Virus record (IMG/VR): IMGVR_UViG_2713896896_000010
Coordinates: 1-33,014 of that record
From: a virus
Lineage: Duplodnaviria; Heunggongvirae; Uroviricota; Caudoviricetes
Length of the DNA stretch: 33,014 nucleotides
Direction: 5' to 3' (one strand)
A model generated the notes under the pieces. That model worked only from the letters and a program-made list of their open reading frames with translations, was not told the DNA's origin and ran no database searches. Every line of letters starts with the position of its first letter. The stretch's first letter is position 1. A program made the translations under genes and the position numbers. Below are positions 9,268 to 29,375 of the stretch, one piece after another.

Positions 9268-9294
9268 GGGTGCTGAACTCCCCCAGCAGTACCC
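9268..9294 (+). promoter_or_regulatory. Conserved motif copy A (GGGTGCTGAACTCCCCCAGCAGTACCC)
   Basis: Matches the copy at 17427..17453 at 23 of 27 positions. Lies 135 nt upstream of the first lysis-cassette gene. Confidence 0.35.
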
Positions 9295-9430
9295 ACCACA
9301 CCAGACCGTTTACCCTGTCCACTCAGACCACAAGACACCTTAAGGGATAGCGCCCGGCAAAAGTCATTCTTTGTCTTTGACCGGGTGTTATTTACGGGCC
9401 GTCAGTGGCTCAGATTTACAGGAGAAACTC

Positions 9431-9823
9431 ATGTCTGAACCCTTATCAGGCGGCGGAGCGGTGGCTGTCACCATCGGTGGCGCCAGTGTGTTTGGCCTTC
9501 TCACCAATACCGATTTCGGGGTCGTGGTGGGCGCGTTTGCCGGGGCGCTTTTTGTTGTCACGCAGCAGAAAGAAATCCCGGTCTGGCGAATGGCTATCCA
9601 CCTGCTCGTCGCGTTTGTGGTTGGCGTTCTGGGGGCTGGCGTGGCTGCGTCACTGATGCAGTGGCTGACCCACTACAACGACAAGCCGCTCGATGCATTG
9701 TGTGCGGTCGGTGTCTCTGCTTTATCCATCAAGATACTGACTTTTCTTTATCAACAGGAAATTTCATCGCTGTTCAGCCTGTTTTCAAGACTGCGCGGCG
9801 GAGGGGGCGGAAATGGAAAGTAG
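9431..9823 (+). CDS. Holin-like membrane protein
   Basis: ATG after an AGGAGA Shine-Dalgarno. Several hydrophobic segments. Immediately upstream of the endolysin. Confidence 0.5.
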   Translation: MSEPLSGGGAVAVTIGGASVFGLLTNTDFGVVVGAFAGALFVVTQQKEIPVWRMAIHLLVAFVVGVLGAGVAASLMQWLTHYNDKPLDALCAVGVSALSIKILTFLYQQEISSLFSLFSRLRGGGGGNGK

Positions 9824-10109
9824 CCTTGCCGGTATTGTGAACGTCTGGCTGTGTCTTGCCATTGTGCTGGGGTTGTTTATGTATCGCCGCCACGGCGCAG
9901 CACATAAACCAGTGATTACCTGGCTGGCGTACTGGCTGATGCTCGGCTACGGCATCATCCCGCTCCTCTGGCTGACGGGGTCACATACGCACTCCAGCTG
10001 GCTGGCGGTGGCACTGAATCTGGTTTTCTGTGCGCTTATCGTGTGGGCGCGCGGGAATTTATCAAAAATCCTTTCGTTACTGAGGCATCCGTATGAAATC
10101 AAAAGATGA
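9813..10109 (+). CDS. Small membrane protein (holin/antiholin-like)
   Basis: 98 aa with about three hydrophobic helices. Overlaps both neighbouring genes. Confidence 0.5.
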   Translation: MESSLAGIVNVWLCLAIVLGLFMYRRHGAAHKPVITWLAYWLMLGYGIIPLLWLTGSHTHSSWLAVALNLVFCALIVWARGNLSKILSLLRHPYEIKR

Positions 10110-10638
10110 CATTTTTGATGAAGTCCTGGGCAAAGAAGGCGGTTACGTCAATCACCCGGATGATAAGGGCGGTCCGACCAAATGGGGCATTACGGAAAAA
10201 GTTGCCCGCGCCCACGGATACCGTGGTGATATGCGCGATTTAACCCGCCAGCAGGCGCTGGACATCCTTGAAGCCGATTACTGGTATGGCCCGCGATTTG
10301 ACCAGGTCGCCGCATTATCCCCTGATATTGCCGCAGAGTTGTGTGATACCGGTGTGAATATGGGGCCATCCGCGGCGTCCAGAATGCTTCAGCGCTGGCT
10401 GAATGTGTTCAATTTGCGCGGGAAGCTGTACCCGGATATGGATGCAGACGGACGCATCGGGCCTCGCACCATCAGTGCATTGCGCACCTTCCTGAATAAT
10501 CGCGGTCAGGACGGTGAACGGGTGATGCTGACGGCCCTGAACTGCACGCAGGGGGACCGCTATCTGGAACTGGCAGAGAAACGCGAGGCTAACGAATCGT
10601 TTGTTTATGGCTGGCTGAAGGGGCGCGTGGCGGTATGA
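10093..10638 (+). CDS. Endolysin, glycoside hydrolase family 108-like with a C-terminal peptidoglycan-binding region
   Basis: N-terminal EGGYVNHPDDKGGPTKWGIT is the GH108 signature as I recall it. 181 aa. Confidence 0.75.
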   Translation: MKSKDDIFDEVLGKEGGYVNHPDDKGGPTKWGITEKVARAHGYRGDMRDLTRQQALDILEADYWYGPRFDQVAALSPDIAAELCDTGVNMGPSAASRMLQRWLNVFNLRGKLYPDMDADGRIGPRTISALRTFLNNRGQDGERVMLTALNCTQGDRYLELAEKREANESFVYGWLKGRVAV

Positions 10639-10817
10639 CGCGTCAGCACTGGACCCACAGAACGCCACGTAAAGCCGCGCGCTGTGTTCTGGCCCTGTTT
10701 CTGGTGATGTTGCTTCCGGTGGGATGCACGGACATTAACAGAGCGGGCCAGTTGTTTGACGCGGCGGCGCAGGTCTGTCGGATTATTGACGGCATCCGGC
10801 AGTGTTCACAGAACTGA
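10635..10817 (+). CDS. Small lipoprotein (lipobox LPVGC)
   Basis: 60 aa with a signal peptide and lipobox-like LLPVGC, then a 29-aa mature region with two Cys. ATGA overlap with the endolysin stop. Confidence 0.45.
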   Translation: MTRQHWTHRTPRKAARCVLALFLVMLLPVGCTDINRAGQLFDAAAQVCRIIDGIRQCSQN

Positions 10818-10837
10818 TTTTTTGAAGGTCTGACACA

Positions 10838-11044
10838 GTGAGCATTATCAGATTTACAGAATGCGCAGGCTCAGGGAGCGCCAGCGCTGTCATGGTAGTC
10901 GCTGAACACATCACCCATTTTTACCGTCAGTGTGGTGCATATGGTGGCACGATCATTGAACTGGATACCGGGAAAAACGTGTATGTTCTTGAAAATCCCG
11001 ACGAAGTTAAATGCCTGATTGAACAGGCTCAGAAGGACACTTAA
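10838..11044 (+). CDS. Hypothetical small protein
   Basis: 68-aa ORF between the lysis and packaging genes. Confidence 0.45.
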   Translation: MSIIRFTECAGSGSASAVMVVAEHITHFYRQCGAYGGTIIELDTGKNVYVLENPDEVKCLIEQAQKDT

Positions 11045-11544
11045 TGGCGTGGTCACAGGATATCAGGGACAAAGTCCGTAACGGGTACATCTTTGACCAG
11101 CTTCCGCTGGATATCGTCGCCATGAAGTACGCCGTGCCGCACGACACCGCGCGGCGCTGGAAAACGCAGGCGATGAAGAACGGCGACGACTGGGACAAAC
11201 TGCGGGCCGCTCACGCGCTCGCCGGTGACGGGCTGGAAAGTGTTGCCCGCACCGTGCTTATCAGTCTGGTGGTGAAGTGTCAGACGACGCTTGAACGGCT
11301 GAACCAGAACCCGGACATCCCGCCGCAGGAGTCTGTCGAACTGCTGGCGAGTCTGTCTGACAGTCTCAGTAAGGCGGTGGCCAGCAGTAAAAAAATCCTG
11401 CCGGAAACCGACCGGCTCGCCACGGCACTGGAAGTGGTGCAGCGGCTCGGCGCGTTCATCAAGGAGCGTCACCCGGCGCAGTATGCCCCGTTTCTTGAGG
11501 TGCTCGAAGGCTTCGCTAAAGAGCTTGAGGATAATTTCAGTTAA
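11044..11544 (+). CDS. Putative terminase small subunit (Mu gp27/DUF1804-like)
   Basis: 166-aa ORF directly upstream of the packaging module. Family assignment from memory. Confidence 0.55.
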   Translation: MAWSQDIRDKVRNGYIFDQLPLDIVAMKYAVPHDTARRWKTQAMKNGDDWDKLRAAHALAGDGLESVARTVLISLVVKCQTTLERLNQNPDIPPQESVELLASLSDSLSKAVASSKKILPETDRLATALEVVQRLGAFIKERHPAQYAPFLEVLEGFAKELEDNFS

Positions 11545-11590
11545 CCATAGCGGCCCGGTTTTCCGGGCCGTCTGATATTCGGGATTTGTA

Positions 11591-12331
11591 ATGCAAAAAC
11601 AGATTATTGGTAACGCAACGTTGTATTGCGGTGATGTTCTTGATGTGCTGCCGGCGTTATCCGAACGTTTTGATGCCGTCATTACCGACCCGCCTTACAG
11701 CAGTGGTGGCATACACAAATCAGACCGCAGCATAGCCCCTTCGGACAAGTATGTCGGCCACACCCAGTATGCCGAGTTCACCGGCGATAACCGCGACCAG
11801 CGCAGCTGGGCGTTCTGGTGTTCCATGTGGATTTCTCATGCATTGCACAGGCTGAATCCCGGCGGTTATTTCATGGTGTTCAGTGACTGGCGACAACTAC
11901 CGGCACTTACCGATGCATTTCAGGCCGGTGGTGTGCTGTGGCGTGGTCTGGTTGTCTGGGATAAAACGCAGGCTTCCCGTGCGCCACACACCGGCTATTT
12001 CCGGCATCAGGCCGAGTATGTGGTCTGGGGCAGCAACGGAAAACTCGACAAATGCCCGCACGGTGGCCCGTTCCCGGGTGTGATTACGCAGCGCGTTGTC
12101 CCGTCCGAAAAACTGCACATGACCGCAAAGCCGGTTCAGCTGATGGCCGAGCTGGTTAAACCGCTGGCACCGGATGCGCACGTTCTCGATCCGTTTATGG
12201 GAAGCGGCACTACCGCCATCCCTGTACTTGCCCGTGGCGGACGGTTTACCGGCATTGAAATGACTAACCAGTATTTTGATATCGCCTGCGCACGTATCGA
12301 AAAAGCGCAGGCAGAAGCAGTGCAGGTGTGA
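11591..12331 (+). CDS. DNA N6-adenine/N4-cytosine methyltransferase (DPPY motif)
   Basis: Catalytic motif FDAVITDPPY near the N-terminus and an AdoMet-binding motif FMGSGTT near the C-terminus. No adjacent restriction endonuclease gene. Confidence 0.8.
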   Translation: MQKQIIGNATLYCGDVLDVLPALSERFDAVITDPPYSSGGIHKSDRSIAPSDKYVGHTQYAEFTGDNRDQRSWAFWCSMWISHALHRLNPGGYFMVFSDWRQLPALTDAFQAGGVLWRGLVVWDKTQASRAPHTGYFRHQAEYVVWGSNGKLDKCPHGGPFPGVITQRVVPSEKLHMTAKPVQLMAELVKPLAPDAHVLDPFMGSGTTAIPVLARGGRFTGIEMTNQYFDIACARIEKAQAEAVQV

Positions 12332-12332
12332 C

Positions 12333-13973
12333 GTGGCAAAACGTAAACTTTCCATTAAAGAGTTTCAGAGAAGCCTGCAGGAGTACATCGCCAACCTCCG
12401 CCAGACCATCGAGGCTGAATGTCTGGGGTTCGATGTTAACCCGCAGGCCACACAGGCCCGCCGGGCGGCAGTCTGCGACCCGGTGACGGGCTACGATTAT
12501 TTTGTCGAAAACTATTTCCCGCACTACGTCCGCAACCCGGCAAAAAGTGAGCTGCATAAATACCTGTTCACCCGTCTGCCACAGGTTGTGGCAAGCCCGG
12601 ACCCGGAGAACGACGCCATCGCCGCGCCCCGTGGTGAGGCAAAATCCACGCTGGTGACTCAGCTGTTTACCCTGTGGACCATTATCCGGGCCATTAAACA
12701 TTACCCGGTCATCATTATGGACAGTATCGACCAGGCTTATCCGATGCTGGAAGCCATCAAGGCTGAACTGGAATTTAACCCCCGTTTAAAAAACGATTTC
12801 CCGGAAGTGTGCGGACAGGGGCGCGTCTGGCGTATGGGGACCATCGTCACGGCCAACAATATCAAGGTGACCGTCGCCGGTAGCGGTAAAAAACTGCGTG
12901 GTCTGCGCCACGGTCCGTACCGTCCTGACCTGGTCATCCTCGACGACATCGAGAACGACGAGATGGTGCGTAACCCGGAGCAGCGCGACAAGCTGCATGA
13001 CTGGCTCACCAAAACCGTGATGCCGCTGGGTGAGGCTGGCGGTAAAACCGATATTATTTATATCGGGACCATTCTGCATTACGACTCCGTACTGTCGCGC
13101 ACACTCAATAACCCGATGTGGAAAACAGCCCGCTTTAAGGCCGTTATTCAGTGGCCTGCCAACATGAAGCTGTGGGACGAGTGGGAAGAACTCATCCGCA
13201 ACAAACAGCCGGAAGCAGCGGAGGCACTTTACCGGCAGAACGAAGCCGACATGCTCGCCGGGTCAGTGGTGTCATGGGCGGCGCGTCCCCTGCTGGCGCT
13301 GATGAAAATCCGTGTCCGTGACGGTCACGACACCTTTGATTCTGAATACCAGAACGACCCGGTCAGCGGTGAAGATGCGCTGTTTGCGGGCTGCATTAAG
13401 TTCTGGGTTAACCGTCTTGATGAATGGGTGTTCTACGGCGCTGTTGACCCCAGTCTCGGGAAGAAGAATAAAAACCGCGACCCGTCAGCCATTCTCGTGG
13501 GGGGCTTTAACCGCTTTACCGGCATTCTGGATGTGGTTGAAGCCGATATACGCCGACGTCTGCCGAATAAACTTATCGAAGACGTGATTAAGTATCAGCG
13601 GGAATATCACTGCCTGTGCTGGTCGTTTGAGTCCGTCCAGTTTCAGGAGTTTCTGCGTACCGTGCTGGTTGAGCGTTCGGCGGCGCTGGGTGTGCCGGTT
13701 CCGGCGCTGCCGGTCATCCCGCTGGAGGATAAGGCGCTGCGTATTGAGTCCCTTCAGCCGCATATGGCCAATGGTCTGATTCGTATCAGTCACACACATC
13801 AGACGCTGATTGACCAGCTGCGCCACTATCCCAAAGCCGACCATGATGATGGGCCGGACTGTCTGCACATGCTGTGGACGCTGGCGGTATCGCGCAGCGC
13901 AAAATTTCAGATACACACCCCACGCAGCACCGGGCGTGACCGTGGCGGGCGTTTTGGTTCAGGAGGATGGTAA
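12333..13973 (+). CDS. Terminase large subunit (Mu gp28-like)
   Basis: Large ORF after the small subunit. GTG at 12333 chosen because it follows the methyltransferase stop. The track start at 12276 is a TTG inside the methyltransferase gene. Confidence 0.75.
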   Translation: MAKRKLSIKEFQRSLQEYIANLRQTIEAECLGFDVNPQATQARRAAVCDPVTGYDYFVENYFPHYVRNPAKSELHKYLFTRLPQVVASPDPENDAIAAPRGEAKSTLVTQLFTLWTIIRAIKHYPVIIMDSIDQAYPMLEAIKAELEFNPRLKNDFPEVCGQGRVWRMGTIVTANNIKVTVAGSGKKLRGLRHGPYRPDLVILDDIENDEMVRNPEQRDKLHDWLTKTVMPLGEAGGKTDIIYIGTILHYDSVLSRTLNNPMWKTARFKAVIQWPANMKLWDEWEELIRNKQPEAAEALYRQNEADMLAGSVVSWAARPLLALMKIRVRDGHDTFDSEYQNDPVSGEDALFAGCIKFWVNRLDEWVFYGAVDPSLGKKNKNRDPSAILVGGFNRFTGILDVVEADIRRRLPNKLIEDVIKYQREYHCLCWSFESVQFQEFLRTVLVERSAALGVPVPALPVIPLEDKALRIESLQPHMANGLIRISHTHQTLIDQLRHYPKADHDDGPDCLHMLWTLAVSRSAKFQIHTPRSTGRDRGGRFGSGGW

Positions 13974-13976
13974 TTA

Positions 13977-17273: not shown

Positions 17274-17355
17274 ATGACCAGAAACGCGCTGTAATCGCCT
17301 GTGACAACATAAACGCCTCACGGATGAGGCATTACAGCACCGCACCCCATAAATG

Positions 17356-17380
17356 CCGTCAGAATCGTTTTTAAAAGGGT
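17356..17380. promoter_or_regulatory. AT-rich dyad CGTTTTTAAAA-GGG-TTTTAAAAACG
   Basis: 11-bp perfect inverted repeat around a GGG centre, read directly. Lies in the gap between G-like and the protease/scaffold gene and is followed by a T-rich tract. Confidence 0.4.
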
Positions 17381-17426
17381 TTTAAAAACGGTTTTATTTC
17401 CCATTTTATCCTTTCGCGTTATGGCA

Positions 17427-17453
17427 GGGTGCTGAACACCCTCCACAGTACCC
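17427..17453 (+). promoter_or_regulatory. Conserved motif copy B (GGGTGCTGAACACCCTCCACAGTACCC)
   Basis: 23 of 27 identical to copy A. The first 15 nt from the GTG are identical to copy C. Overlaps the annotated GTG start of the protease/scaffold ORF. Confidence 0.35.
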
Positions 17454-18598
17454 CGTGTTCCCCTTCCGTCATCATGCCGCGTATGAAGATGAACATTGCG
17501 GCATTAAGCCTCGAAATCACCAAAGCAACCCACAGCGAAATCCAGCTGTTTCCGGCAGGCGAGTTCAGCGCGGTGGATGGTCGCCCACACACCGATGAAG
17601 TCGAAAGCGGTAAATGGGTGCTGACTGCCGGACTGGCCGCGCAGCTTGTCGCACAGGTGGCAGCCCGTACCACGCCTTTTGTCATTGATTACGAACATCA
17701 GACGCTGCGCGCCGTAAACAACGGCAAGCCCGCCCCGGCGGCGGGCTGGTTCAGCCAGGTGGAATGGCGTGAAGGTGCGGGCCTGTATGCCACCGGCGTG
17801 GAGTGGACGGAGAACGCGGCGGCCATGATTGCCGCCGGTGAGTACAAATTTATTTCCCCTGTTTTTGCCTACAACAAGCGCGGCGAAGTGCTGGAGCTGT
17901 TACACGCTGCGCTGACCAATACCCCGGCGCTGGATGGTATGGACGCGGTCATGCTGGCTGCGGCCAGCCGTCTGGCGAGTCTGTCAACTGAAACGGAGAC
18001 CACAACGGTGGATGAAGAACTGTTAAACGAATTGCTGTCCAGCCTGCGCTGGATGCTTAACCTCCCTGTCACCTCAACGGCGGAAGATATTAAAAGCGAG
18101 CTTCAGAAAGTCATTGACCAGATTTCAAAAGGTCAGGGAACGGCGGCGGCTTCTGTCAGCCTGCTGGCCCTGCTGAATCAGAAAGATGAGCAAATCGCCA
18201 GCCTGTCAGCCAGTGCCTATGACCCGGCAAAACATATTTCCCTTGCCGCATATGAAGAACTTCAGGGGCGTTATGCCGCACTGGCGCAACAGTCCGGTGA
18301 GGCCGAAGCCGGGGCACTGATTCAGGCGGCGCTGTCTGACGGGCGACTGCTTCCGGTACAGGAAGACTGGGCGAAAGATTACGCCAGCCGCGACATCAAC
18401 GGTTTTAAAACATGGCTGGAAAAAGCGCCGAACATTGCCGCACTCAGCCAGACCCAGACCGGCGGCAAAGCCCCCAAAACGCCGTCGCCTGCCCCGGCAC
18501 AGATTAAAACCGGCGATGACGTTGATGTCGATATCGCCATTTGTTCAATGATGGGCGTCGATCCAGAGGATGTCGCCCGTTACGCAGGAGATGAGTAA
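17429..18598 (+). CDS. Head protease/scaffold protein (Mu I-like)
   Basis: 389 aa from the GTG at 17429. In-frame ATGs at 17474 and 17483 are alternative starts, so the start is uncertain. Confidence 0.7.
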   Translation: MLNTLHSTPCSPSVIMPRMKMNIAALSLEITKATHSEIQLFPAGEFSAVDGRPHTDEVESGKWVLTAGLAAQLVAQVAARTTPFVIDYEHQTLRAVNNGKPAPAAGWFSQVEWREGAGLYATGVEWTENAAAMIAAGEYKFISPVFAYNKRGEVLELLHAALTNTPALDGMDAVMLAAASRLASLSTETETTTVDEELLNELLSSLRWMLNLPVTSTAEDIKSELQKVIDQISKGQGTAAASVSLLALLNQKDEQIASLSASAYDPAKHISLAAYEELQGRYAALAQQSGEAEAGALIQAALSDGRLLPVQEDWAKDYASRDINGFKTWLEKAPNIAALSQTQTGGKAPKTPSPAPAQIKTGDDVDVDIAICSMMGVDPEDVARYAGDE

Positions 18599-19916: not shown

Positions 19917-20258
19917 ATGGAAAAAGTGATTGAAATTACCGCCCGCCGTGAGGGGTTTCGCCGCTGCGGTGTGGCACACAGCGCAACCACGAAGGCATGG
20001 CCTATGGATGCGTTCACCCCGGAACAGCTGGCGGTGCTGAAGGCTGACCCCATGCTGATTGTGGTGGAACGTGATAAAGCGTCCGGCCAGAACGACGCGG
20101 CCCGGGGTAATGAGCTGGCCGCACAGCTGGATGCCGAACGCCAGAAAGTCAGCGGCCTGACGGCACAACTGGAAGAAGAACGCCAGAAAGTCAGTGAACT
20201 GACCGCACAACTGAACGCCGCACAGAAAACACAAAAAGCTGACAAAAAGGAGAAGTAA
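19917..20258 (+). CDS. Hypothetical coiled-coil protein with an internal tandem repeat
   Basis: 113 aa. A 14-aa unit ERQKVSxLTAQLxx occurs twice, encoded by 42-bp tandem repeats at about 20136..20215. Confidence 0.5.
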   Translation: MEKVIEITARREGFRRCGVAHSATTKAWPMDAFTPEQLAVLKADPMLIVVERDKASGQNDAARGNELAAQLDAERQKVSGLTAQLEEERQKVSELTAQLNAAQKTQKADKKEK

Positions 20259-21328: not shown

Positions 21329-21542
21329 GGCGGCTCCCGGGATGAAGTTCCCGATGGAGGATAACGCCCGAAAATACATCACCACGGAAGCGGTGACCGT
21401 TGAGAACACCGCTTATTACCGGCGCGCCGTTCAGGACGGTGACCTGATTCTGGTGGCTGAAGAGCCTGAAACGGCTGAACAGGACACCGGCCCGGAAAAA
21501 ACGAAGGCGAAGAAAGAGAAACAGGTGGGTTCCAATGAGTGA
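21309..21542 (+). CDS. Hypothetical small protein
   Basis: 77-aa ORF overlapping both neighbours, just upstream of the tail sheath gene. Confidence 0.45.
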   Translation: MNKMKVKAAPGMKFPMEDNARKYITTEAVTVENTAYYRRAVQDGDLILVAEEPETAEQDTGPEKTKAKKEKQVGSNE

Positions 21543-22956: not shown

Positions 22957-22968
22957 GGAGCCTGATAA

Positions 22969-23343
22969 ATGTCTCTGCATGAATACATTGGCTCGATTGT
23001 GCTGGAGGTGGACAGCCAGGAAATCGAGATCACCGACCTTGATGTTCAGATCAACACTGGGCGCAAACTGGTCAAGACCATGAACAAAACCGGCAGGGCC
23101 AAAGGCTTTGCCCGGGGCATTGGCACCTACGAACTGTCCGTTTCGGCGGTGATCCCTGATACCAACGAGCCGGACTGGGAAAACCTTGAAGGTGTGAAAA
23201 TCTCGCTGTACCCGCTCAGTAAAAGCGGCAAACGCACCTCCTATCTGGACTGCTTCACAATCGAAGTGGGTGAAAAATACACCGTCGATAATGAAGCAAA
23301 AATTGATATCAAACTGGCTGCACTCAGGAAGGTGACAGGATGA
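22969..23343 (+). CDS. Tail tube protein (Mu M-like)
   Basis: 124 aa, directly downstream of the sheath gene. Confidence 0.7.
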   Translation: MSLHEYIGSIVLEVDSQEIEITDLDVQINTGRKLVKTMNKTGRAKGFARGIGTYELSVSAVIPDTNEPDWENLEGVKISLYPLSKSGKRTSYLDCFTIEVGEKYTVDNEAKIDIKLAALRKVTG

Positions 23344-23741
23344 CTTTGATTAATACACAGACCGGCGAACTGTCTGATGGCGTGGTGTTTAACGGCACCG
23401 TTCATAAAAGCTTTGAACTGCGTCTCCCGGTCATGCGTGATAACGGGCAGGCACTGGAAGAAACCGAAGAACGCTTTCAGACGGTGGATGGCTTCGCGGC
23501 GGATTATTACTACCGCTGTGCGGTGATGGCGGCAACGCTGGTCCGCCTGGGGGATATCCCGCAGGAAGAACTGACGGCGGAGCTGTTGCACGACAACATG
23601 ACGCTGGAAGATTTTAATGTTCTGATGGCAGCACGCGACATCCTGAAGGTAAAGCGGAACGGCGGGAATCCCGGCTCGCCGGACTCCGGTTCGCAGTCCT
23701 TATCCTCGGGCGCTACGGAATCACCGAAGAACAAATCATGA
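23340..23741 (+). CDS. Tail assembly chaperone (Mu gp41-like)
   Basis: 133 aa, between the tube and tape measure genes. The -1 frame stays open from 23618 to 23895. Confidence 0.6.
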   Translation: MTLINTQTGELSDGVVFNGTVHKSFELRLPVMRDNGQALEETEERFQTVDGFAADYYYRCAVMAATLVRLGDIPQEELTAELLHDNMTLEDFNVLMAARDILKVKRNGGNPGSPDSGSQSLSSGATESPKNKS

Positions 23742-23885
23742 CCATGAGCCGTCCCGAGCTGGACGGCTGGCTCGCCGCCGTTGACAGGCTGAACGGTGGC
23801 GGCTCAGGAAGAAAGGACACCTCACAGACCACCCGCCAGTCATTTAAATCCCTCAGAAAGAAACGCAGAAAAGGTAAGCAGAAAA

Positions 23886-26156
23886 ATGGCCGGTAATTTC
23901 AAAGTTGGCATGACCCTGACAGCGAAGGACGAAGCCTCGCAGGTTCTGGAAAAGGGACAAAAACAGGTTATCAAAGCCACCGAAGGTGTAACAAAGGCAA
24001 CACGGAAGGCAGGCGCAGAGCAGAAGCGTACCGAGCAGGAAAGCGTTAACAGCACGAAAAAGGCCGCAAAAGAGATACAGCGTGCCGCCCGTGCCCGGGA
24101 AACGCTCGGTATTCGTGCAGAACGCGAGATCCGGCGTGAAATTTATCTGACGGTCGCCAGCTATAACCGTCTGGCCCGTGCCGGTTTTGAATCTGCGCAG
24201 GAGCAGGAGCGCGCCATGCAGGCAACCCGGGAAAAAGCCCGGGCACTCAAGCGGGAACTGGATGGCGTTACTCAGGCACAGATGAAGATGGCGAAAACGC
24301 CTGTTATCCCCGAGCGGGGGCGTTTTGCACGTGCGGCTGCATTTGGCGGGAACGCCGTGACAATAGGCGGTGGTATCGCAGCAGGTGCTGCCATTATGGC
24401 GCAGCCGGTCAAAAAGCAGATGAGCTACGAACGCCAGCTGGCAATGATGGCCAATACCGCCTTCAGTGATGGTGGGCTGGAGGGGCGCAGGGCTGGTCTT
24501 GAGCAGATGAAAAGCAGTATCCGTAACGCGGTAACCTATGGTGGTGGCACGAAAGAGGATGCGGCTGAAACGCTGGATGCCCTGCTGAAAGACGGCATTT
24601 CATTTGAAACAGCCAGTAAGTGGCTGCCTGAACTGATGAAATACGCCACGGCTTCTGGTGCATCTGCAACAGACCTGGCCAACGTAATGGTCAAGGGTAA
24701 AAAGACCTTTGGATTCAGGGATGAAGATATTTCCACCGTTCTGAATATGGCGATTGCGGCGGGGAAAGAAGGCAGCTTTGAACTGAACGATATGGCGCAA
24801 TATTTATCGTCACAACTTGGGGCTGCTGCCAATGCCGGGATGAAAGGCAAGGATGATTTCGTCAAGATTCTGGCGCTGAATGAAGCCGCAGCGATTACAG
24901 CTGGTAACAGCAGCGAAGCCGGAAATAACGTATTTAACCTGCTGGCAAAACTGACCAGTAAGGATATTGAAACAGCAGCTGCGGGAATAAATTACAACGG
25001 TAAGGGCATCGACTTTGCAGGAACGTTGGTAGAAGCGCGCAAGAACGGGCTTGATCCGATAGACGCGCTGTCCAGCCTGATAGACAAAATCGTTGCCAGC
25101 GATAAACGCTATCAGGAGCTGCAAAAGAAACTGGCATCCGCCCGGGACAAAGGCGAGCAGACGGCTGTTTATGATTCGATGGTAAAACTCCTTGAAGGTT
25201 TTGGTGTCGGGAAACTGGTTGCAGACCAACAGGCGTTAAAGGCGTTGCTGGCTTATCGTAACAACCCGGAATACCGGAAAAAGGTTGAAGATGCGATTAA
25301 TCAGCAGCGCACCCTGCCGGAAGGTCAGCGCGCGGGTGATGTGGATTTCGAATTCACGTCAGGCACGAATGATTTTAAAACCGAACAGGCTAAAAACACG
25401 CTTGAATTTTCACAAATGGACAGCGTGAAAAAGCTGGCTGATGCGTCCGGTACTGTGGCTGATGCCATAAGCTGGGCGGGTGAAAAGTTCCCGGGACTGA
25501 CCACGGCAGTGGTGGGGGCCACGACCGCCATTGAAGCGATGACCGCAGCGGCTCTGACATGGGCCGGGATCAAAATCCTGACCGGGGGGAAACCCGGTGG
25601 CAAGGCCGGCGAGGTTGTCGGTGATGTAATTGAAAATACGGTCAAAAAAGGCAAAGGATTTAAATTCCCCGGCATTGCCGGTAGCCTGCTTTCTTTCGGT
25701 GGCTCCGTTACGGCACTGGCCACCGCAACCAGCCCGGAAGAAGACGCCGCCGTCGAAGGCAGCGAAGAACGCTGGAAACGCATCCGTGCCCGATACCCCC
25801 AGGAAATCATCGACGCCGCCCGCAAAAAATACCAGCCGTGGTGGCAGTTTGGGGAAGGCTATTCCACCGAAAACGAAGAGTGGTTGAGGCGCTGGGAGGA
25901 AGACAGGAAAAAAGCGGCAGCTGATGCCCTGCCATCACCAGAGCAGGTTAACAAATCCGCAGGAAACACAACGCCTGAACCGGTATCAACGCAACCCGGA
26001 CGCATCACCCAGCCGGAATACCTCACGCACTGGGGACCACCTGCCAGCCCCATTAATTTCACCACACAACTGGTGCTCGATGGTCAGGTCGTGGCGGAAG
26101 CGGTGAACAAATACAACCTTCAGGACGGTAACAGAGGCACGGGAGGAACTTACTGA
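23886..26156 (+). CDS. Tail tape measure protein
   Basis: Long, Ala/Gly-rich, helical ORF after the chaperone. ATG at 23886 preferred over the track start, which is a GTG at 23796. Confidence 0.75.
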   Translation: MAGNFKVGMTLTAKDEASQVLEKGQKQVIKATEGVTKATRKAGAEQKRTEQESVNSTKKAAKEIQRAARARETLGIRAEREIRREIYLTVASYNRLARAGFESAQEQERAMQATREKARALKRELDGVTQAQMKMAKTPVIPERGRFARAAAFGGNAVTIGGGIAAGAAIMAQPVKKQMSYERQLAMMANTAFSDGGLEGRRAGLEQMKSSIRNAVTYGGGTKEDAAETLDALLKDGISFETASKWLPELMKYATASGASATDLANVMVKGKKTFGFRDEDISTVLNMAIAAGKEGSFELNDMAQYLSSQLGAAANAGMKGKDDFVKILALNEAAAITAGNSSEAGNNVFNLLAKLTSKDIETAAAGINYNGKGIDFAGTLVEARKNGLDPIDALSSLIDKIVASDKRYQELQKKLASARDKGEQTAVYDSMVKLLEGFGVGKLVADQQALKALLAYRNNPEYRKKVEDAINQQRTLPEGQRAGDVDFEFTSGTNDFKTEQAKNTLEFSQMDSVKKLADASGTVADAISWAGEKFPGLTTAVVGATTAIEAMTAAALTWAGIKILTGGKPGGKAGEVVGDVIENTVKKGKGFKFPGIAGSLLSFGGSVTALATATSPEEDAAVEGSEERWKRIRARYPQEIIDAARKKYQPWWQFGEGYSTENEEWLRRWEEDRKKAAADALPSPEQVNKSAGNTTPEPVSTQPGRITQPEYLTHWGPPASPINFTTQLVLDGQVVAEAVNKYNLQDGNRGTGGTY

Positions 26157-27505
26157 TGGGCTGGGCTGAAAATCTGCAAAACGCTTCCTTTCGCGGCGTG
26201 CAGTTTGATGTGCTTAACACGGATGAACAAATCAGCCGCGACCATGCGGTCTATGAATACCCGTTTGTTGACGGGGCAGATTTGCACGACCTCGGACGCA
26301 AGGCGCGACCGTTCCGCATGACGGCGTTCCTGTGGGGGGAGTATTACGAATACAAACTCGAAAAGCTGACCGCCGCCCTGGACGAAGGCGGCGATGGTGA
26401 GCTGATTCACCCGATTTATGGCTCCGTACCGTCGGTGATTGTAACCGGCTACAGCATCCGCCATGACGCAGAAAGCCCGGACAGCTGCACTATTGACATG
26501 AGTTTTCTGGAGAACCGCACCGACAGTGCGCTGTTCAGCACCCCGTTACCGGAGTTGTTTGCACAGCAGCTGTTTGAAGAACTGGATAAGTTACTGGCAC
26601 AGTTAAGCGAGTTTTTTGAAGCTGTTACGGCCCCTTTAAAGACCATTAACAGCGTAATAAAAAAAATCCAGACAGTGCGCGCCACACTGGTGAATACCCT
26701 GCTGACGTTCAAAAGCGATTTTATCACCTCTGTCGATAATATGATGTCACTGGTCAGCGAGCCCGGAAAGTTTATCGGTGGACTGGCAGAGGTGCTGGAA
26801 ATCCACACGTCAGATGTCGGGCACGCGGTGCCGGTTCTGGCGCGTACTGATTCCGCCACCACGACCGGACTGACCGGAGAGGACAGCGTCGCCAGTTCTG
26901 CGACCGTGATGACCTGCTGGAATAAGGTGATGGCAGATATGGATGAACTGGTCGCGCTGCCGGTCGCACTGGTCAGCGGTGATAAAACGCCGTCTGTGGC
27001 ACTTCCGCCGGATGCTTCCGTGGAAGACGTGCAGGACGTGAAAGCGGCTTATGCGGTTCTGGCAGCTTCCGAACTGGCCAGCGTGGCAACGGCAGTACTG
27101 TCCGATGGAGCCCAGTCAGAACAGCTTATACCGGCGGATATCGGGCGACTGGTCGGGGATGTGCGCACCCGCTTACAGGCAGCCATCACGCTGTTCCGTG
27201 AACGCTATGAAGGCGAACGCGAACGGATAACTGAAACCGCATCACCGCTGGGACTGATGTACCCGGAAATCATTCAGAGCATAAAGAACGTGGCGGCATC
27301 CGTGCAGGATATCGGCCTGCTGGTGCTTTCACGCCGCCCACCGCTGACGCAGAAACAGGTGCAGGCGGACAGCTGTCTGCTGTTGCTGGCGTGGCAGTGG
27401 TACGGCGATTACAGCCGTGCGGCAGAGCTGCAACGCCTGAACCCGCAACTGCGTGACCCGAACAATATAACCGCCGGGATGGTGATTAATGCCTGGACAA
27501 AATAA
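26156..27505 (+). CDS. DNA circulation protein (Mu N/gp43-like)
   Basis: 449 aa in the Mu N position after the tape measure gene. Confidence 0.65.
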   Translation: MGWAENLQNASFRGVQFDVLNTDEQISRDHAVYEYPFVDGADLHDLGRKARPFRMTAFLWGEYYEYKLEKLTAALDEGGDGELIHPIYGSVPSVIVTGYSIRHDAESPDSCTIDMSFLENRTDSALFSTPLPELFAQQLFEELDKLLAQLSEFFEAVTAPLKTINSVIKKIQTVRATLVNTLLTFKSDFITSVDNMMSLVSEPGKFIGGLAEVLEIHTSDVGHAVPVLARTDSATTTGLTGEDSVASSATVMTCWNKVMADMDELVALPVALVSGDKTPSVALPPDASVEDVQDVKAAYAVLAASELASVATAVLSDGAQSEQLIPADIGRLVGDVRTRLQAAITLFRERYEGERERITETASPLGLMYPEIIQSIKNVAASVQDIGLLVLSRRPPLTQKQVQADSCLLLLAWQWYGDYSRAAELQRLNPQLRDPNNITAGMVINAWTK

Positions 27506-28700
27506 CGAAGACAAAATCAGCCTGGTCATTGCCGGAAGGTCGCATTCTGACTGGAGCAGTTATCGTATTGACAGCGATTTCCTGAAAGCCGCCGACGGCT
27601 GGCAGCTTCAGCTGGGGCTGCCTGAAAAGGTGTTCCCGGCGGATATCGTCCGGGGCGCGCCAGTCCGGTTGCAGGTGGGAGACGAAACGGTGCTCAGTGG
27701 TCGCGTGGACAGCGTGCGCCGCAGTGTATCCCGTCAGAGCTGCACGCTGACGCTGTCCGGGCGTGATGATGCCGCCATTCTGGTGGACTGTGCCGCACCG
27801 GTGTTCAGCGCCAACCAGCTGACACTGGACGAGGTCATCGACAGGATAGTCAGACCGCTGGGGATACAGCGCATCCGTATTCAGGCATCCGGTGTGTCAC
27901 GTAATGACAAGGTCGTTATAGAGCCGGGAATGCGTGCGTGGGATGCACTGGCTAAAGCTGCCGCCGGTCGCGGCTTATGGCCGTGGTTTGAGCCTGACGG
28001 GACGCTGGTTGTGGGTGGCCCTGACTACACCACCACGCCGGTGGATACGCTGATTCTGAAGCTGGACGGCACCGGGAACAACGTGATGGAGCTGGACGAC
28101 ACCCGGTCCATTAACGGCTGCTTCTCCGAACTGACTGTACTGGCCCAGAGCCACGCCCGCCGCGCAGACAGCAAAAAACAGGTGGCCACAGTGCCTCTGG
28201 ATATCTGGAACGAGGACGGCAGCGTGCGCACATTATCCGGGCGGGACGGTGGTAATACGGACAGTGGTCAGACAGGCATTCATAACATGAAAGCCGTGGC
28301 CACCGACCCCACCGTGGATTATTACCGCCCGCAGATTATTACCCAGGGCGACACCAGCAACATGGAACAGGTGAACTGGCGCGCCAAAAAAATGATGAGT
28401 GATGCCCGCCTGTCCGGGCTGGATATCGTCGCACTGGTTGCAGGTCATCGCACGGCGGACGGTGTCCTGTGGCAGCCCGGACAGCGTGTGCGGATTGTCA
28501 GCGAACCCCACGGCATTGATGCCATCTTTTTCCTGATGGGGCGTGAGTTCAGCGGAGGCCGCAACGGGCAGACAACCCGGCTCCGTTTTAAGGAGGACGG
28601 CGTGTGGATACCTGATGCCTTCCCGCGCGAGAAGAAACGCCATCACCGCAGGGGCAAAAAGAAAAAAGAGGTCGCCATTGTTAAGGTCTGGGAGAAATGA
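27489..28700 (+). CDS. Baseplate/tail protein (Mu P/gp44-like)
   Basis: 403 aa. Position and size match Mu P. Confidence 0.7.
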   Translation: MPGQNNEDKISLVIAGRSHSDWSSYRIDSDFLKAADGWQLQLGLPEKVFPADIVRGAPVRLQVGDETVLSGRVDSVRRSVSRQSCTLTLSGRDDAAILVDCAAPVFSANQLTLDEVIDRIVRPLGIQRIRIQASGVSRNDKVVIEPGMRAWDALAKAAAGRGLWPWFEPDGTLVVGGPDYTTTPVDTLILKLDGTGNNVMELDDTRSINGCFSELTVLAQSHARRADSKKQVATVPLDIWNEDGSVRTLSGRDGGNTDSGQTGIHNMKAVATDPTVDYYRPQIITQGDTSNMEQVNWRAKKMMSDARLSGLDIVALVAGHRTADGVLWQPGQRVRIVSEPHGIDAIFFLMGREFSGGRNGQTTRLRFKEDGVWIPDAFPREKKRHHRRGKKKKEVAIVKVWEK

Positions 28701-29350
28701 TGTGGGACAAAGTTAATCAGCGCGTACAGCAGGCACTGGCCGCCGTTCGTCAGGCATTCAGGGTGGTGACCGGTACGGTAGACAGTTCGACCAAAGTACA
28801 GTTGCTTCAGCTTAACGGGCTGGCCGGCGAACAGCTGGACGGTGCGGAGTATTTTCAGCATTACGGCCTCACCACATCCCCGCCGCCCGGCTCAATGGGT
28901 ATTGCCGTTCCGCTGAATGGTAATACCTCCCATACCGTCGTCGTGGCCACAGAGCACGGCGCATATCGCCTGACGGAACTGAAGCCCGGCGAGGTGGCCC
29001 TGTATACCGACGAAGGCGCAAAAATCGTACTGAAGCGCGGGCGGGTTATTGAGCATGAATGTGATGTTTATCGCGTGAAATGCAAATGCTATGAGGTTGA
29101 GGCAGAGGAGAACGCCGCATTCACGACACCGTTACTGACGGCCAGCGATAAGCTGACGGTGGAAGGTAAAATCACCGGCAACGGTGGCATGGCCATCCGC
29201 GGAGGCAAGGAATACGCCGCCACTTTTGAAGGCAACATCAACCATGTGGGTGGTGTGCTTACCTCCGTTGACGTCACCATTAATGGCGTTAAAATCGGAA
29301 CACACAAACACGATACCCCTCACGGCATATCCGGCCTGCCGCATAATTAA
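28697..29350 (+). CDS. Baseplate spike/assembly protein (gpV-like, Mu gp45-like)
   Basis: 217 aa. N-terminal region typical of gpV-type spike proteins as I recall them. Confidence 0.65.
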   Translation: MMWDKVNQRVQQALAAVRQAFRVVTGTVDSSTKVQLLQLNGLAGEQLDGAEYFQHYGLTTSPPPGSMGIAVPLNGNTSHTVVVATEHGAYRLTELKPGEVALYTDEGAKIVLKRGRVIEHECDVYRVKCKCYEVEAEENAAFTTPLLTASDKLTVEGKITGNGGMAIRGGKEYAATFEGNINHVGGVLTSVDVTINGVKIGTHKHDTPHGISGLPHN

Positions 29351-29375
29351 GTGCTGAACACCCTCACCTGATTCT
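29349..29375 (+). promoter_or_regulatory. Conserved motif copy C (core GTGCTGAACACCCTC)
   Basis: 15-nt exact match to copy B. Lies in the 53-bp gap between the spike gene and the next baseplate gene. Confidence 0.3.

What the first reader, a model, noticed from the sequence alone, without database searches (positions are those of the whole stretch)
9268..29375. A conserved roughly 27-bp motif occurs three times, before the lysis genes, the protease/scaffold gene and a baseplate gene
The motif reads GGGTGCTGAAC[T/A]CCC[C/T]C..CAGTACCC. Copy A (9268..9294) and copy B (17427..17453) match at 23 of 27 positions. Copy C (29349..29375) shares an exact 15-mer, GTGCTGAACACCCTC, with B. Mu has C-dependent late promoters ahead of its lysis, head and tail gene blocks, and these three sites sit in comparable positions, so they may be late-promoter or activator-binding elements for the Mor/C-family protein at 8476..8943. 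One caveat: copies B and C lie only about 20-45 nt before the annotated start codons, which is tight for a promoter with an upstream activator site. They could instead be leader-RNA elements, or the gene starts may be further downstream.
Basis: partly seen in the sequence, partly recalled or inferred. Interest (0 to 1): 0.55.

Follow-up and report, generated by a model that had tools for sequence, protein, structure and literature searches.

The report
Mu-type late promoters, two apparently leaderless
The three repeated motifs are most likely the binding sites of this Mu-like prophage's own late-gene activator inside three late promoters, and two of them sit so close to their genes that the messages should begin exactly at the start codon.

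Summary
The 15-mer GTGCTGAACWCCCYC occurs three times, against 0.16 expected by chance.

The window is a Mu-like prophage of E. coli. The conserved part of the motif is an imperfect dyad, GCTGA-N6-TCAGC. In 84 unique core-only matches from 1.3 Mb of related phage DNA, 84 lie on the sense strand and 1 on the antisense strand. In 93% of them an nAnnnT hexamer starts exactly 16 nt after the 27-mer, and in the rest 15 nt after. None of the three window sites has a -35 element.

Anchored on that hexamer, the dyad centre falls at -43.5. This is the same distance as the C-protein site of Mu Pmom.

The site sequence changes together with the recognition region of the adjacent Mor/C-family activator (window 8476-8943), and it varies in concert among the sites of one phage.

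Sites A, B and C correspond to Mu Plys, PI and a displaced PP. At B and C the ATG lies 6-7 nt after the hexamer in every relative, and these genes have the weakest and third-weakest Shine-Dalgarno pairing of 50 genes. The mRNAs are therefore predicted to be leaderless.

At C, a covarying RNA hairpin on the + strand buries the ATG in read-through RNA.

No step has been tested experimentally.

The parts
8476..8943 (+). Gene for the 155-aa Mor/C-family activator. It is the positional and sequence analogue of Mu C and the proposed binder of the three sites. It ends in QVGLFD, which resembles a clamp-binding motif.
   Evidence: Pfam PF08765, 29.1 bits. PHROG 836 'late transcriptional activator', 1e-42. 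The family profile's best match among solved structures is Mu late activator C, 9l0x, E 9e-4. The FLGGxxFYIP linker aligns to Mu C.
8386..8446 (+). Intrinsic terminator (8386-8406) followed by a sigma-70-like promoter, TGTACA-16-TATAAT (8419-8446), directly ahead of the activator gene. This is the analogue of a middle operon.
   Evidence: sequence.
9268..9294 (+). Site A, the activator site of the lysis-operon late promoter (Plys analogue), predicted to span -55 to -29. The inner dyad is GCTGA (9272-9276) and CCAGC (9283-9287).
9311..9316 (+). Site A -10 hexamer, TACCCT. The predicted start is about 9321-9325, giving a leader of about 108 nt before the holin ATG at 9431.
   Evidence: The hexamer lies exactly 16 nt after the 27-mer, as in 93% of core-only hits. 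No -35 element.
17427..17453 (+). Site B, the activator site of the head-gene late promoter (PI analogue). The dyad is GCTGA (17431-17435) and TCCAC (17442-17446).
17470..17485 (+). Site B -10 hexamer CATCAT (17470-17475), a 7-nt GC-rich discriminator, and the ATG of protease gene I (17483-17485), which is the predicted +1.
   Evidence: The ATG lies 6-7 nt after the hexamer in 19 of 19 unique B-type sites. This gene has the weakest Shine-Dalgarno pairing of 50 genes, +1.2 kcal/mol.
29349..29375 (+). Site C, the activator site of a baseplate and tail-fibre late promoter. It fills the 53-nt gap between the gp45 stop codon (29348-29350) and gp46. The dyad is GCTGA (29353-29357) and TCACC (29364-29368).
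29392..29406 (+). Site C -10 hexamer CAGACT (29392-29397), the 6-nt spacer ggcggc, and the ATG of gp46 (29404-29406), which is the predicted +1.
   Evidence: The ATG lies 6 nt after the hexamer in 9 of 9 unique C-type sites. This gene has the third-weakest Shine-Dalgarno pairing of 50. 29404 is the first canonical start codon (ATG, GTG or TTG) after the upstream in-frame stop.
29381..29409 (+). A 13-bp RNA hairpin (29381-29393 paired with 29397-29409). Its apical region holds the -10 hexamer and its 3' arm contains the gp46 AUG. It can form only in transcripts that read through from upstream.
   Evidence: Centroid energy -23.8 kcal/mol, z -3.6. Across 27 homologous regions, 89% of cells are paired against 28-38% for slid controls, and 26 cells carry changes on both sides, matched by 0 of 500 shuffles. 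G.U pairs number 24 and A.C pairs 2, so the structure belongs to the + strand RNA.

Best explanation
The three motifs are the operator parts of three late promoters of a Mu-like prophage.

The proposed mechanism is this. The phage's own Mor/C-family activator (8476-8943), made from a separate operon behind a terminator, binds an imperfect dyad, GCTGA-N6-TCAGC. The dyad is centred 31 bp upstream of the first base of a weak -10 hexamer, which puts it at -43.5. There the activator substitutes for the missing -35 element and lets sigma-70 RNA polymerase start, as Mu C does at Plys, PI, PP and Pmom.

- Site A drives the lysis, terminase and portal block through a leader of about 108 nt.
- Site B drives the protease/scaffold and head-to-tail block.
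- Site C drives gp46 to the tail fibres.

At B and C the A of the ATG lies where transcription should begin, so these two transcripts are predicted to be leaderless.

At C, read-through RNA from upstream folds a hairpin that buries the same AUG. Efficient gp46 translation would then depend on the promoter-born leaderless RNA.

What is shown here: the sequence anatomy, its conservation, the fixed spacing, strand specificity, co-variation with the activator, lack of a -35 element, lack of Shine-Dalgarno pairing, and covariation in the hairpin.

What is inferred: binding, activation, the transcription start points, leaderless translation, and the gating role of the hairpin.

My sub-confidences are: promoter plus activator site about 0.8-0.85; leaderless starts about 0.6; hairpin gating about 0.4.
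For: 1. Chance is excluded. Only three strong sites exist in 33 kb, all on the + strand and all at gene-block junctions.

2. Synteny. Relatives from Trabulsiella, Xenorhabdus, Photorhabdus, Buttiauxella, Morganella and Serratia, together with IMG/VR contigs, carry the motif at the same junctions: after the activator gene, before gene I and before gp46. With the full position-weight matrix there are 116 hits on the + strand and 0 on the - strand in 1.31 Mb.

3. An unbiased spacing test, using a matrix for the core only, found 84 unique + strand hits and 1 on the - strand. In 93%, A-N3-T falls at offset 43, against at most 11% at any other offset. The other six hits have it at offset 42. The spacer between the 27-mer and the hexamer carries almost no information.

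4. No sigma-70 -35 element is found at any of the three sites.

5. Geometry. The distance from dyad centre to hexamer is 31 bp, identical to TTAT-N6-ATAA at Mu Pmom (sequence). The literature gives a 16-bp imperfect dyad at -43.5, a footprint from -30 to -55 and no -35 element (PMC2582627; PMC12867686).

6. Co-variation with the activator:
- Proteins with SxR[Q/S]...SDRxxW go with GCTGAAC/G in 27 of 27 cases.
- Proteins with TSSLMAM and similar go with CACTGAAC or CCCTGAAC in 6 of 6 cases where a site was found (no site was found for a seventh, L216).
- Proteins with SGRxAL...SDRxxQ go with GACGAAC in 5 of 5 cases.
- All three sites of one Morganella phage share the private variant GCTGAACCCCGCCAAC.

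7. Leaderless prediction:
- The ATG is 6-7 nt after the hexamer in 19 of 19 B-type and 9 of 9 C-type unique sites. Among 33 A-type sites, only 1 has an ATG nearby.
- Genes I and gp46 rank 1st and 3rd weakest of 50 genes for Shine-Dalgarno pairing.
- In protease loci at 46% identity or less, 38 of 43 unique regions still have the hexamer followed by an ATG.
- Upstream of gp46, 39 of the 40 regions with the hexamer lack a Shine-Dalgarno sequence. Of the 11 without the hexamer, 9 have pairing of -5 kcal/mol or stronger (3 at -6 or stronger).

8. Hairpin at C. The hexamer's positions 2 (A) and 6 (T) are invariant in 27 of 27 sequences while its other positions vary, which is the signature of a -10 element.
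Against: - No transcript 5' ends, binding data or reporter data exist for this phage.
- The -10 hexamers are weak (TACCCT, CATCAT, CAGACT).
- The sequence differs entirely from Mu's TTAT-N5-6-ATAA.
- Site C has a poor right half-site (TCACC). It sits between gp45 and gp46, not before gp44/P as in Mu.
- At C the hexamer is also part of a conserved RNA hairpin, so some of its conservation could serve the RNA rather than a promoter.
- Mu's own PI transcript has a leader of about 27 nt with a Shine-Dalgarno sequence (oligonucleotide table of PMC4461284), so a leaderless start is not a family trait.
- The co-variation classes are phylogenetically clustered and are not independent events.
- Two relatives do not fit. 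L013 has no site. In L007 the motif lies upstream of the activator gene itself.
Confidence: 0.8

Rival explanations
1. The promoters and activator sites are real, but B and C do not make leaderless mRNA. Transcription would start a few bases away from the A of the ATG. Alternatively, I and gp46 would be translated mainly from long read-through transcripts by some route that does not need a Shine-Dalgarno sequence. The hairpin at C would then serve RNA stability or processing rather than gating.
For: The start points are only inferred from the distance to the hexamer. Mu PI has a leader with a Shine-Dalgarno sequence. Hairpins next to the gp46 ATG also occur in lineages without the hexamer, so the hairpin predates or is independent of the promoter. 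Hairpins at B-type sites are inconsistent.
Against: The gap of 6-7 nt to the ATG is kept in 28 of 28 unique B-type and C-type sites and in 38 of 43 distant I genes. The two genes have nearly the weakest Shine-Dalgarno pairing in the phage. The hexamer and Shine-Dalgarno pairing are almost mutually exclusive upstream of gp46. The start is ATG in all of these sites, and (from my own knowledge) leaderless translation in E. coli works best with a 5' AUG.
Confidence: 0.3
2. The motif is a structured RNA element, that is, a leader or intercistronic hairpin formed by GGGUGCUG...CAGUACCC. It would act on translation, processing or termination rather than as a DNA operator.
For: In the window, copies A and B fold into an 8-bp hairpin. 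The motif is strictly strand-specific, which an RNA element would also be.
Against: The outer inverted repeat is confined to this lineage: 7.6 of 8 pairs here against 3.4 of 8 elsewhere, which is about the random level. Copy C lacks it. What is conserved is an inner DNA-type dyad plus a hexamer at a fixed distance, with only the A and T invariant. Site A is about 140 nt from its gene. No Rfam family matches.
Confidence: 0.04
3. The motif binds a different factor: a host protein, the 92-aa or 158-aa neighbouring proteins, or a repressor. Or it serves a DNA transaction such as a recombination module boundary, a gyrase site or packaging.
For: Binding has not been tested. The G-I intergenic region resembles the region of Mu's strong gyrase site. 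Module junctions in phages can carry repeats.
Against: The site sequence changes with the helix-turn-helix residues of the Mor-family protein and in concert within each genome. The 92-aa gene is absent between the activator gene and site A in the Xenorhabdus, Photorhabdus and Morganella phages, where the site lies 54-56 nt after the activator's stop codon. The 158-aa protein has no detectable DNA-binding family. The fixed register to a -10 hexamer and to the ATG is not expected for a recombination or gyrase site.
Confidence: 0.06

Closest known systems
[quoted passage not shown]
   Same: An activator of the Mor/C family is encoded just upstream of the lysis genes in its own operon. The promoters have a -10 element but no -35 element. 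An imperfect dyad of about 16 bp lies 31 bp upstream of the first base of the hexamer (-43.5). One promoter precedes each of the lysis block, gene I and the baseplate/tail block. The activator carries a C-terminal motif resembling a clamp-binding motif.
   Different: The half-sites are GCTGA/TCAGC rather than TTAT/ATAA. No fourth (mom) promoter is present in the window. The third promoter lies between gp45 and gp46 instead of before gp44/P. Two of the three are predicted to be leaderless, whereas Mu PI has a leader of about 27 nt with a Shine-Dalgarno sequence. At C the -10 hexamer lies in the apical region of an RNA hairpin that masks the AUG. The activator is only remotely similar to C: one 21-residue segment is 62% identical.
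Mu middle promoter Pm, activated by Mor
   Same: Same protein family and the same class of geometry. In the Xenorhabdus, Photorhabdus and Morganella relatives, a second and related site (AACCACTGAACCCCTTCAAC...AATACT) precedes the C-like gene. An upstream Mor paralogue is visible in one Morganella-type contig (L226). Together these give a Mu-like two-tier cascade.
   Different: The window has no such site and no second Mor-family gene. The activator gene is instead preceded by a terminator and a near-consensus sigma-70 promoter.
Lambda PRM and the cI mRNA (an activator-dependent promoter that gives a leaderless mRNA)
   Same: An activator bound near -42 and a transcript that begins at the A of the AUG with no Shine-Dalgarno sequence. 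This comparison rests on my own knowledge of lambda and was not tested here.
   Different: These are late structural genes rather than a repressor gene. The activator family is different. The promoters lie inside long operons, so the same AUG also exists in read-through RNA.
Mu Com/mom translational control (a hairpin that masks the translation start)
   Same: A stem-loop sequesters a start region in a late Mu-type transcript. This rests on my own knowledge. The gp46 hairpin here buries the AUG, and in other lineages it buries a GAGG resembling a Shine-Dalgarno sequence.
   Different: No Com-like RNA-binding protein is implicated. The proposed bypass is a new 5' end made by an internal promoter, not opening of the hairpin by a protein.

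Membership tests
Mu C-type late promoter | A recognisable -10 hexamer and no usable -35 hexamer | tested here: met
   The hexamers TACCCT, CATCAT and CAGACT have A at position 2 and T at position 6, and these two positions are invariant in relatives. The sigma-70 scan finds no promoter with a -35 element at A, B or C.
Mu C-type late promoter | An imperfect dyad of about 16 bp centred at -43.5, lying within a footprint from -30 to -55 | tested here: met
   GCTGA-N6-TCAGC occupies positions 5-20 of the 27-mer. Its centre is 31 bp upstream of the first base of the hexamer, the same distance as TTAT-N6-ATAA at Mu Pmom. The coordinate assumes that +1 is 7 nt after the hexamer. The start point has not been mapped.
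Mu C-type late promoter | Half-site consensus TTAT-N5-6-ATAA | tested here: not met
   The half-sites are GCTGA and TCAGC. These are therefore not sites for Mu C itself. They would be sites for a diverged family member.
Mu C-type late promoter | Dependence on the phage Mor/C-family activator | not testable with these tools
   Indirect support only. The activator gene is adjacent, and the site sequence co-varies with its helix-turn-helix residues (27 of 27, 6 of 6 and 5 of 5) and in concert within genomes.
Mu C-type late promoter | Positions ahead of the lysis genes, gene I and gene P | tested here: inconclusive
   A (before the holin) and B (before I) match. C lies two genes downstream of the Mu PP position, between gp45 and gp46.
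Mor/C family activator (PF08765) | Profile match above the curated threshold | tested here: met
   Pfam Mor, 29.1 bits against a cut-off of 24.9. PHROG 836, 1e-42. The best match among solved structures is Mu late activator C, E 9e-4, against 0.78 for Mor 1rr7.
Mor/C family activator (PF08765) | A beta-strand linker with invariant glycines (LGGxxxYIP), followed by a C-terminal helix-turn-helix | tested here: met
   FLGGAPFYIPRCDHALRALRN aligns to FLGGRQFYIPCGDTILTALRD of Mu C. The linker plus helix-turn-helix aligns to Mor. These residues are invariant in 15 homologues.
Mor/C family activator (PF08765) | A clamp-binding motif (N-terminal Qx[DE][LM]F and/or C-terminal QPDLF; PMC12867686) | tested here: inconclusive
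   The C-terminus reads QVGLFD. Q150, L153 and F154 are nearly invariant. No N-terminal motif is evident. Binding has not been tested.
Leaderless mRNA | The primary 5' end coincides with the A of the AUG | not testable with these tools
   Predicted from the 6-7 nt gap between hexamer and ATG, which holds in 28 of 28 unique B-type and C-type sites and in 38 of 43 distant I genes.
Leaderless mRNA | No Shine-Dalgarno sequence; the start codon is AUG | tested here: met
   Anti-Shine-Dalgarno pairing is +1.2 kcal/mol for I and -1.5 kcal/mol for gp46, ranks 1 and 3 of 50 genes. The start is ATG in all B-type and C-type sites.

The most novel reading that the evidence does not exclude
In a large clade of Mu-like phages, though not in Mu itself, the late activator would control translation competence as well as transcription. 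Its internal promoters are placed so that the RNA begins at the AUG of gene I and of gp46. These genes lack a Shine-Dalgarno sequence. In the case of gp46, a conserved RNA hairpin locks the AUG whenever the region is read through from upstream, and the -10 hexamer lies in the apical region of that hairpin. One DNA segment would then encode a promoter on the DNA and its own bypassable translational lock on the RNA. In addition, the co-variation between activator and operator would give a simple recognition code for the Mor/C family: the Arg of the SxRQ segment with the G of GCTGA, and Trp-to-Gln with CTG-to-ACG.
Probability: 0.35. Interest if true: 0.65.

Novelty: new variant of a known kind. 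Interest (0 to 1): 0.5.

Why it matters
Mu's C-dependent late promoters are a textbook case, but they have been studied in one phage with one operator sequence. This work supplies three things.

1. A second, well-populated operator family (GCTGA-N6-TCAGC and its ACTGA and GACGA variants), paired with its activators. This makes the DNA-recognition rules of the Mor/C family directly testable. It also allows late operons of uncharacterised Mu-like prophages, present in about 2% of complete E. coli genomes, to be annotated.

2. A concrete and easily tested prediction: the head protease/scaffold gene and a baseplate gene are expressed from leaderless mRNAs in many Mu-like phages. Leaderless mRNAs are rare in E. 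coli (from my own knowledge). I found no paper linking them to Mu-like late genes, though only an open-access subset of the literature was searched.

3. An example of a promoter embedded in the hairpin that masks the same start codon in read-through RNA.

If the predictions fail, the finding is still an ordinary set of late promoters that has been correctly recognised.

Tried and rejected
- **No close characterised phage.** A megablast of 21 kb against 50,697 phage records found nothing. A distant search matched only holin genes.
- **First genome-contig scan.** The scan with the single activator protein confirmed no relative. It succeeded only with an alignment of homologues.
- **Rfam.** No family matches anywhere in the window.
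- **The 27-mer as an RNA hairpin.** Rejected, because the pairing is not conserved outside this lineage.
- **A fourth site.** None was found in the window or in the annotated copy L001.
- **A second Mor-family gene in the window.** The 158-aa ORF at the position of Mu mor has no Pfam or PHROG family. A profile comparison with the Mor family gave a probability of 0.6%.
- **A B-site hairpin equivalent to the one at C.** Minimum-energy folds of 19 B-type regions show some structure around the AUG in read-through RNA (-5 to -22 kcal/mol) and little in the leaderless form (0 to -6 kcal/mol). There is no single conserved helix, so I make no claim.
- **L007 (Tenebrionibacter).** The motif lies upstream of the activator homologue and the gene order is atypical. 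I did not pursue it.
- **Literature.** Two full-text searches found no paper linking leaderless mRNA to Mu-like late genes. The library holds only open-access papers.

Full report

Yes. A and B match at 23 of 27 positions, and C shares the 15-mer GTGCTGAACACCCTC with B.

The pattern GTGCTGAACWCCCYC, allowing up to two mismatches, occurs three times, always on the + strand. One hundred dinucleotide-preserving shuffles gave a mean of 0.16, and none reached three. A weight matrix of the core scores the three sites at 24-26 bits. Nothing else in the window exceeds 8 bits on either strand.

**2. Context**

The window is a Mu-like prophage. It is 97% identical over 21 kb to a prophage in E. coli 20KM0223N, and 123 of 5,426 complete E. 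coli genomes hold related DNA. It has no close relative among 50,697 deposited phage genomes.

The gene order follows Mu:
- transposase A and B, then early genes and GemA;
- a 158-aa ORF of unknown family;
- an intrinsic terminator (8386-8406) and a near-consensus sigma-70 promoter, TGTACA-16-TATAAT, at 8419-8446;
- the 155-aa Mor-family gene (8476-8943) and a 92-aa ORF;
- **site A**;
- two holins, a GH108 endolysin, terminase, portal, F and G;
- **site B**;
- protease I, the major head protein and tail genes up to gp45;
- **site C**;
- gp46, gp47, gp48 and the tail fibres.

A, B and C therefore stand at the positions of Mu Plys and PI, and two genes downstream of Mu PP.

**3. What is conserved**

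I collected relatives in four ways:
- the activator family in species-representative genomes (L004-L015);
- the activator family in IMG/VR (L178-L227);
- protease I in IMG/VR (L099-L177);
- gp46 in IMG/VR (L019-L098).

The motif recurs at all three junctions in phages whose activator is only 44-66% identical to the window's.

The information content shows a core, TGCTGAAC-CC-TCA-C-G, at positions 4-22 of the 27-mer. A spacer with almost no information follows. Then comes a hexamer in which only position 2 (A) and position 6 (T) are invariant.

The hexamer had been part of that matrix, so I repeated the scan with the core alone. There were 84 unique hits on the sense strand and 1 on the antisense strand in 1.31 Mb. 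In 93%, A-N3-T falls exactly 16 nt after the 27-mer, against at most 11% at any other offset. The six exceptions have it one base closer.

The hexamers (CATCAT, TACACT, TATACT, CACACT, TACCCT, CAGACT and others) are weak -10 elements. A sigma-70 scan finds no promoter with a -35 element at A, B or C.

**4. Geometry compared with Mu**

The conserved core contains an imperfect dyad, GCTGA-N6-TCAGC. It matches 3-5 of 5 positions in all 55 unique 27-mers. In remote phages it becomes a perfect 16-bp palindrome: GCTGAAGCCCTTCAGC in L164 and GACGAACCCCTTCGTC in L154.

The dyad centre lies 31 bp upstream of the first base of the hexamer. I counted the same 31 bp for TTAT-N6-ATAA and TAAGAT in Mu Pmom.

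The literature describes Mu late promoters in these terms (PMC2582627; PMC12867686):
- a -10 element and no -35 element;
- a 16-bp imperfect dyad centred at -43.5;
- a C footprint from -30 to -55;
- bases just downstream of the dyad that also matter.

The architecture is thus that of a C-dependent promoter, but the half-site sequence is different.

**5. Which protein binds?**

The 155-aa protein belongs to the Mor/C family:
- It passes the Pfam Mor threshold.
- It matches PHROG 836, 'late transcriptional activator', at 1e-42.
- It shares the FLGGxxFYIP linker with Mu C.
- As a family profile it matches the solved Mu C structure (E 9e-4) better than Mor (E 0.78).

The site sequence changes with this protein's recognition region across lineages:
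- Proteins reading SxR[Q/S]...SDRxxW have GCTGAAC/G sites in 27 of 27 cases.
- L217-L222, which read TSSLMAM and similar, have CACTGAAC or CCCTGAAC in 6 of 6 cases. No site was found within the L216 locus.
- Proteins with Gln in place of the Trp (L012, L014, L015, L223, L224) have GACGAAC in 5 of 5 cases.

Within one phage the sites vary together. The Morganella H1r phage has GCTGAACCCCGCCAAC at A, B and C. A sister Morganella phage has GCTGAACCCTCTCAAC.

These classes are phylogenetically clustered, so the counts are not independent events. Even so, the pattern is what a phage-encoded sequence-specific binder predicts. It argues against a host factor.

The 92-aa ORF is missing between the activator gene and site A in several lineages that keep the sites. 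The 158-aa ORF has no detectable family.

**6. The 'too close to the start codon' problem**

At every B-type site (19 of 19 unique) the ATG of gene I lies 6 or 7 nt after the hexamer. At every C-type site (9 of 9) the ATG of gp46 lies 6 nt after it. Only 1 of 33 A-type sites has an ATG nearby. That is where sigma-70 RNA polymerase normally starts, so +1 would be the A of the ATG.

Both starts are well founded:
- tblastn matches begin at residue 1, or within the first five residues, in most loci.
- ATGGA is invariant across the 27 aligned gp46 regions.
- 29404 is the first canonical start codon (ATG, GTG or TTG) after the in-frame stop.
- The in-frame ATG at 17474 is not conserved in frame in relatives that have TATGCT hexamers.

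Among 50 genes of the annotated near-identical prophage, protease I has the weakest pairing with the anti-Shine-Dalgarno sequence (+1.2 kcal/mol). gp46 has the third weakest (-1.5 kcal/mol).

The design extends far beyond the motif family. In protease loci at 46% identity or less, 38 of 43 unique upstream regions have nAnnnT 6-7 nt before the ATG, usually behind a different dyad.

Upstream of gp46, 39 of the 40 regions with the hexamer lack a Shine-Dalgarno sequence. Of the 11 without the hexamer, 9 have pairing of -5 kcal/mol or stronger.

Mu itself differs. From the published PI oligonucleotide, which ends 20 nt after the mapped start, its transcript has a leader of about 27 nt and a GCAGGA Shine-Dalgarno sequence.

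I conclude that B and C most likely produce leaderless mRNAs. This is an inference from geometry and conservation, not a mapped 5' end.

**7. The hairpin at site C**

RNA from 29381-29409 folds into a 13-bp stem (centroid -23.8 kcal/mol, z -3.6). The hexamer lies in its apical region and the AUG in its 3' arm.

In an alignment of 27 diverse homologous regions:
- 89% of cells are paired, against 28-38% when the partner is slid by 1-3 columns.
- 26 cells carry changes on both sides, a value reached by 0 of 500 shuffles.
- Two pairs switch among C-G, U-A and G-C.
- Non-Watson-Crick cells are G.U in 24 cases and A.C in 2, which places the structure in the + strand RNA.

A transcript starting at the ATG lacks the 5' arm, so the structure can exist only in RNA reading through from upstream. 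My reading is that read-through RNA keeps the gp46 AUG locked, and that the leaderless RNA made at site C is the translatable form.

In lineages that lack the hexamer, a hairpin at the same place covers a GAGG resembling a Shine-Dalgarno sequence instead. Masking of the gp46 start therefore seems older than the promoter. The functional meaning is untested.

At B-type sites I found no single conserved helix.

**8. Rivals**

- *The 27-mer as an RNA hairpin.* It pairs in this lineage (7.6 of 8 positions) but not elsewhere (3.4 of 8).
- *Another binding protein, or a DNA-transaction site.* This does not explain the co-variation with the activator or the fixed register to a -10 element and to the ATG.
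- *Real promoters without leaderless starts.* This remains the serious alternative for the sub-claim.

**9. Comparison and novelty**

Functionally these are Mu-type C-dependent late promoters, with a C-like activator made from a middle-type operon. They fail one membership test for 'Mu C sites', the TTAT/ATAA consensus. They are therefore sites of a diverged family member, not of Mu C.

They differ from Mu in four ways:
- the operator sequence;
- the position of the third promoter;
- the predicted leaderless starts;
- the AUG-masking hairpin with the -10 element in its apical region.

Some relatives keep a Mu-like two-tier cascade. They have a second site, AACCACTGAACCCCTTCAAC...AATACT, before the C-like gene, and an upstream Mor paralogue is visible in L226. 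The window has a plain sigma-70-type promoter there.

I rate this a new variant of a known kind. Interest is moderate. It is ordinary as 'late promoters', but it yields sharp and inexpensive predictions about leaderless late mRNAs and about a recognition code for the Mor/C family.

Noticed in passing
window 8386-8446: An intrinsic terminator (AGCCCCTGCCATGCAGGGGCT followed by a T-run) is followed by a near-consensus sigma-70 promoter, TGTACA-16-TATAAT, directly before the Mor/C-like gene. The layout resembles Mu's early terminator plus Pm, but no activator site of the ACTGAAC type is present, unlike in the Xenorhabdus, Photorhabdus and Morganella relatives.
   Followed up: partly
window 7899-8375: A 158-aa ORF sits exactly where Mu has mor, right after GemA and before the terminator. 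It has no Pfam or PHROG family and no profile similarity to the Mor family (hhalign probability 0.6%). What turns on the activator gene in this phage is therefore open.
   Followed up: partly
L198, L202, L203, L205, L208, L209, L211-L215 at about 2400-2408; L226 at 1113-1424 and 2003: Relatives carry a second, related site (AACCACTGAACCCCTTCAAC, then 16 nt, then AATACT) about 95 nt upstream of the C-like gene. In L226 an upstream 127-aa Mor paralogue with a different recognition segment (STVK...SDRHAW) is visible. This looks like a Mu-like Mor-to-C cascade using ACTGA versus GCTGA half-sites.
   Followed up: partly
window 8923-8940 (residues 150-155 of the activator): The activator ends in QVGLFD. 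Q150, L153 and F154 are nearly invariant in homologues. This resembles the C-terminal clamp-binding motif QPDLF that a 2026 paper (PMC12867686) reports as required for Mu C function. No N-terminal motif is evident.
   Followed up: partly
window 17274-17426: The G-I intergenic region upstream of site B shares patches with the region of Mu's strong gyrase site: AAACGCCTCACGG against AAACGCGCCACGG at the annotated Mu gyrase cut, plus CGGTTTTAT and AT-rich runs. It also holds a hairpin at 17312-17333.
   Followed up: partly
window 9345-9393 and 9255-9270: The predicted lysis-operon leader contains a strong hairpin. The fold of 9323-9450 has z -3.4, and the stem's 3' arm is GUGUUAUUU. It could be an attenuator or a stabiliser. 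Separately, a GC hairpin (CCCCGC-cgct-GCGGGG) abuts the left edge of site A, much as Mu's middle-transcript terminator abuts the C site of Plys.
   Followed up: no
L196, L199, L200, L206, L217-L220, L223, L224, L227, just downstream of the A-type hexamers: Many A-type transcripts, and the second-tier transcripts, would begin with a short stem-loop at about +3 to +25, for example CCAC...GTGG, CACCAT...ATGGTG and AACACCTTCC...GGGAGGTGTT. The window's site A lacks an obvious equivalent.
   Followed up: no
L071, L075, L081, L092, L086, L094, L096, L098 at about 2975-3000: In gp46 lineages without the promoter hexamer, a hairpin such as GCGAGGCA-ACC-TGCCTCGC ends 1 nt before the ATG and covers a GAGG resembling a Shine-Dalgarno sequence. 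Masking of the gp46 start thus seems general among Mu-like phages.
   Followed up: partly
L007 at 9936-9984: In a Tenebrionibacter contig, a motif copy with the hexamer TACCGT lies about 65 nt upstream of the Mor homologue itself, and none is found downstream. This could be autoregulation or a rearranged element.
   Followed up: partly
window 20115-20198: A 42-nt tandem duplication (79% identical copies) lies inside the HI1506-related head gene.
   Followed up: no
window 11591-12331: A DNA methyltransferase gene is embedded in the late lysis/terminase operon. No mom-like gene or fourth late promoter is seen in the window.
   Followed up: no
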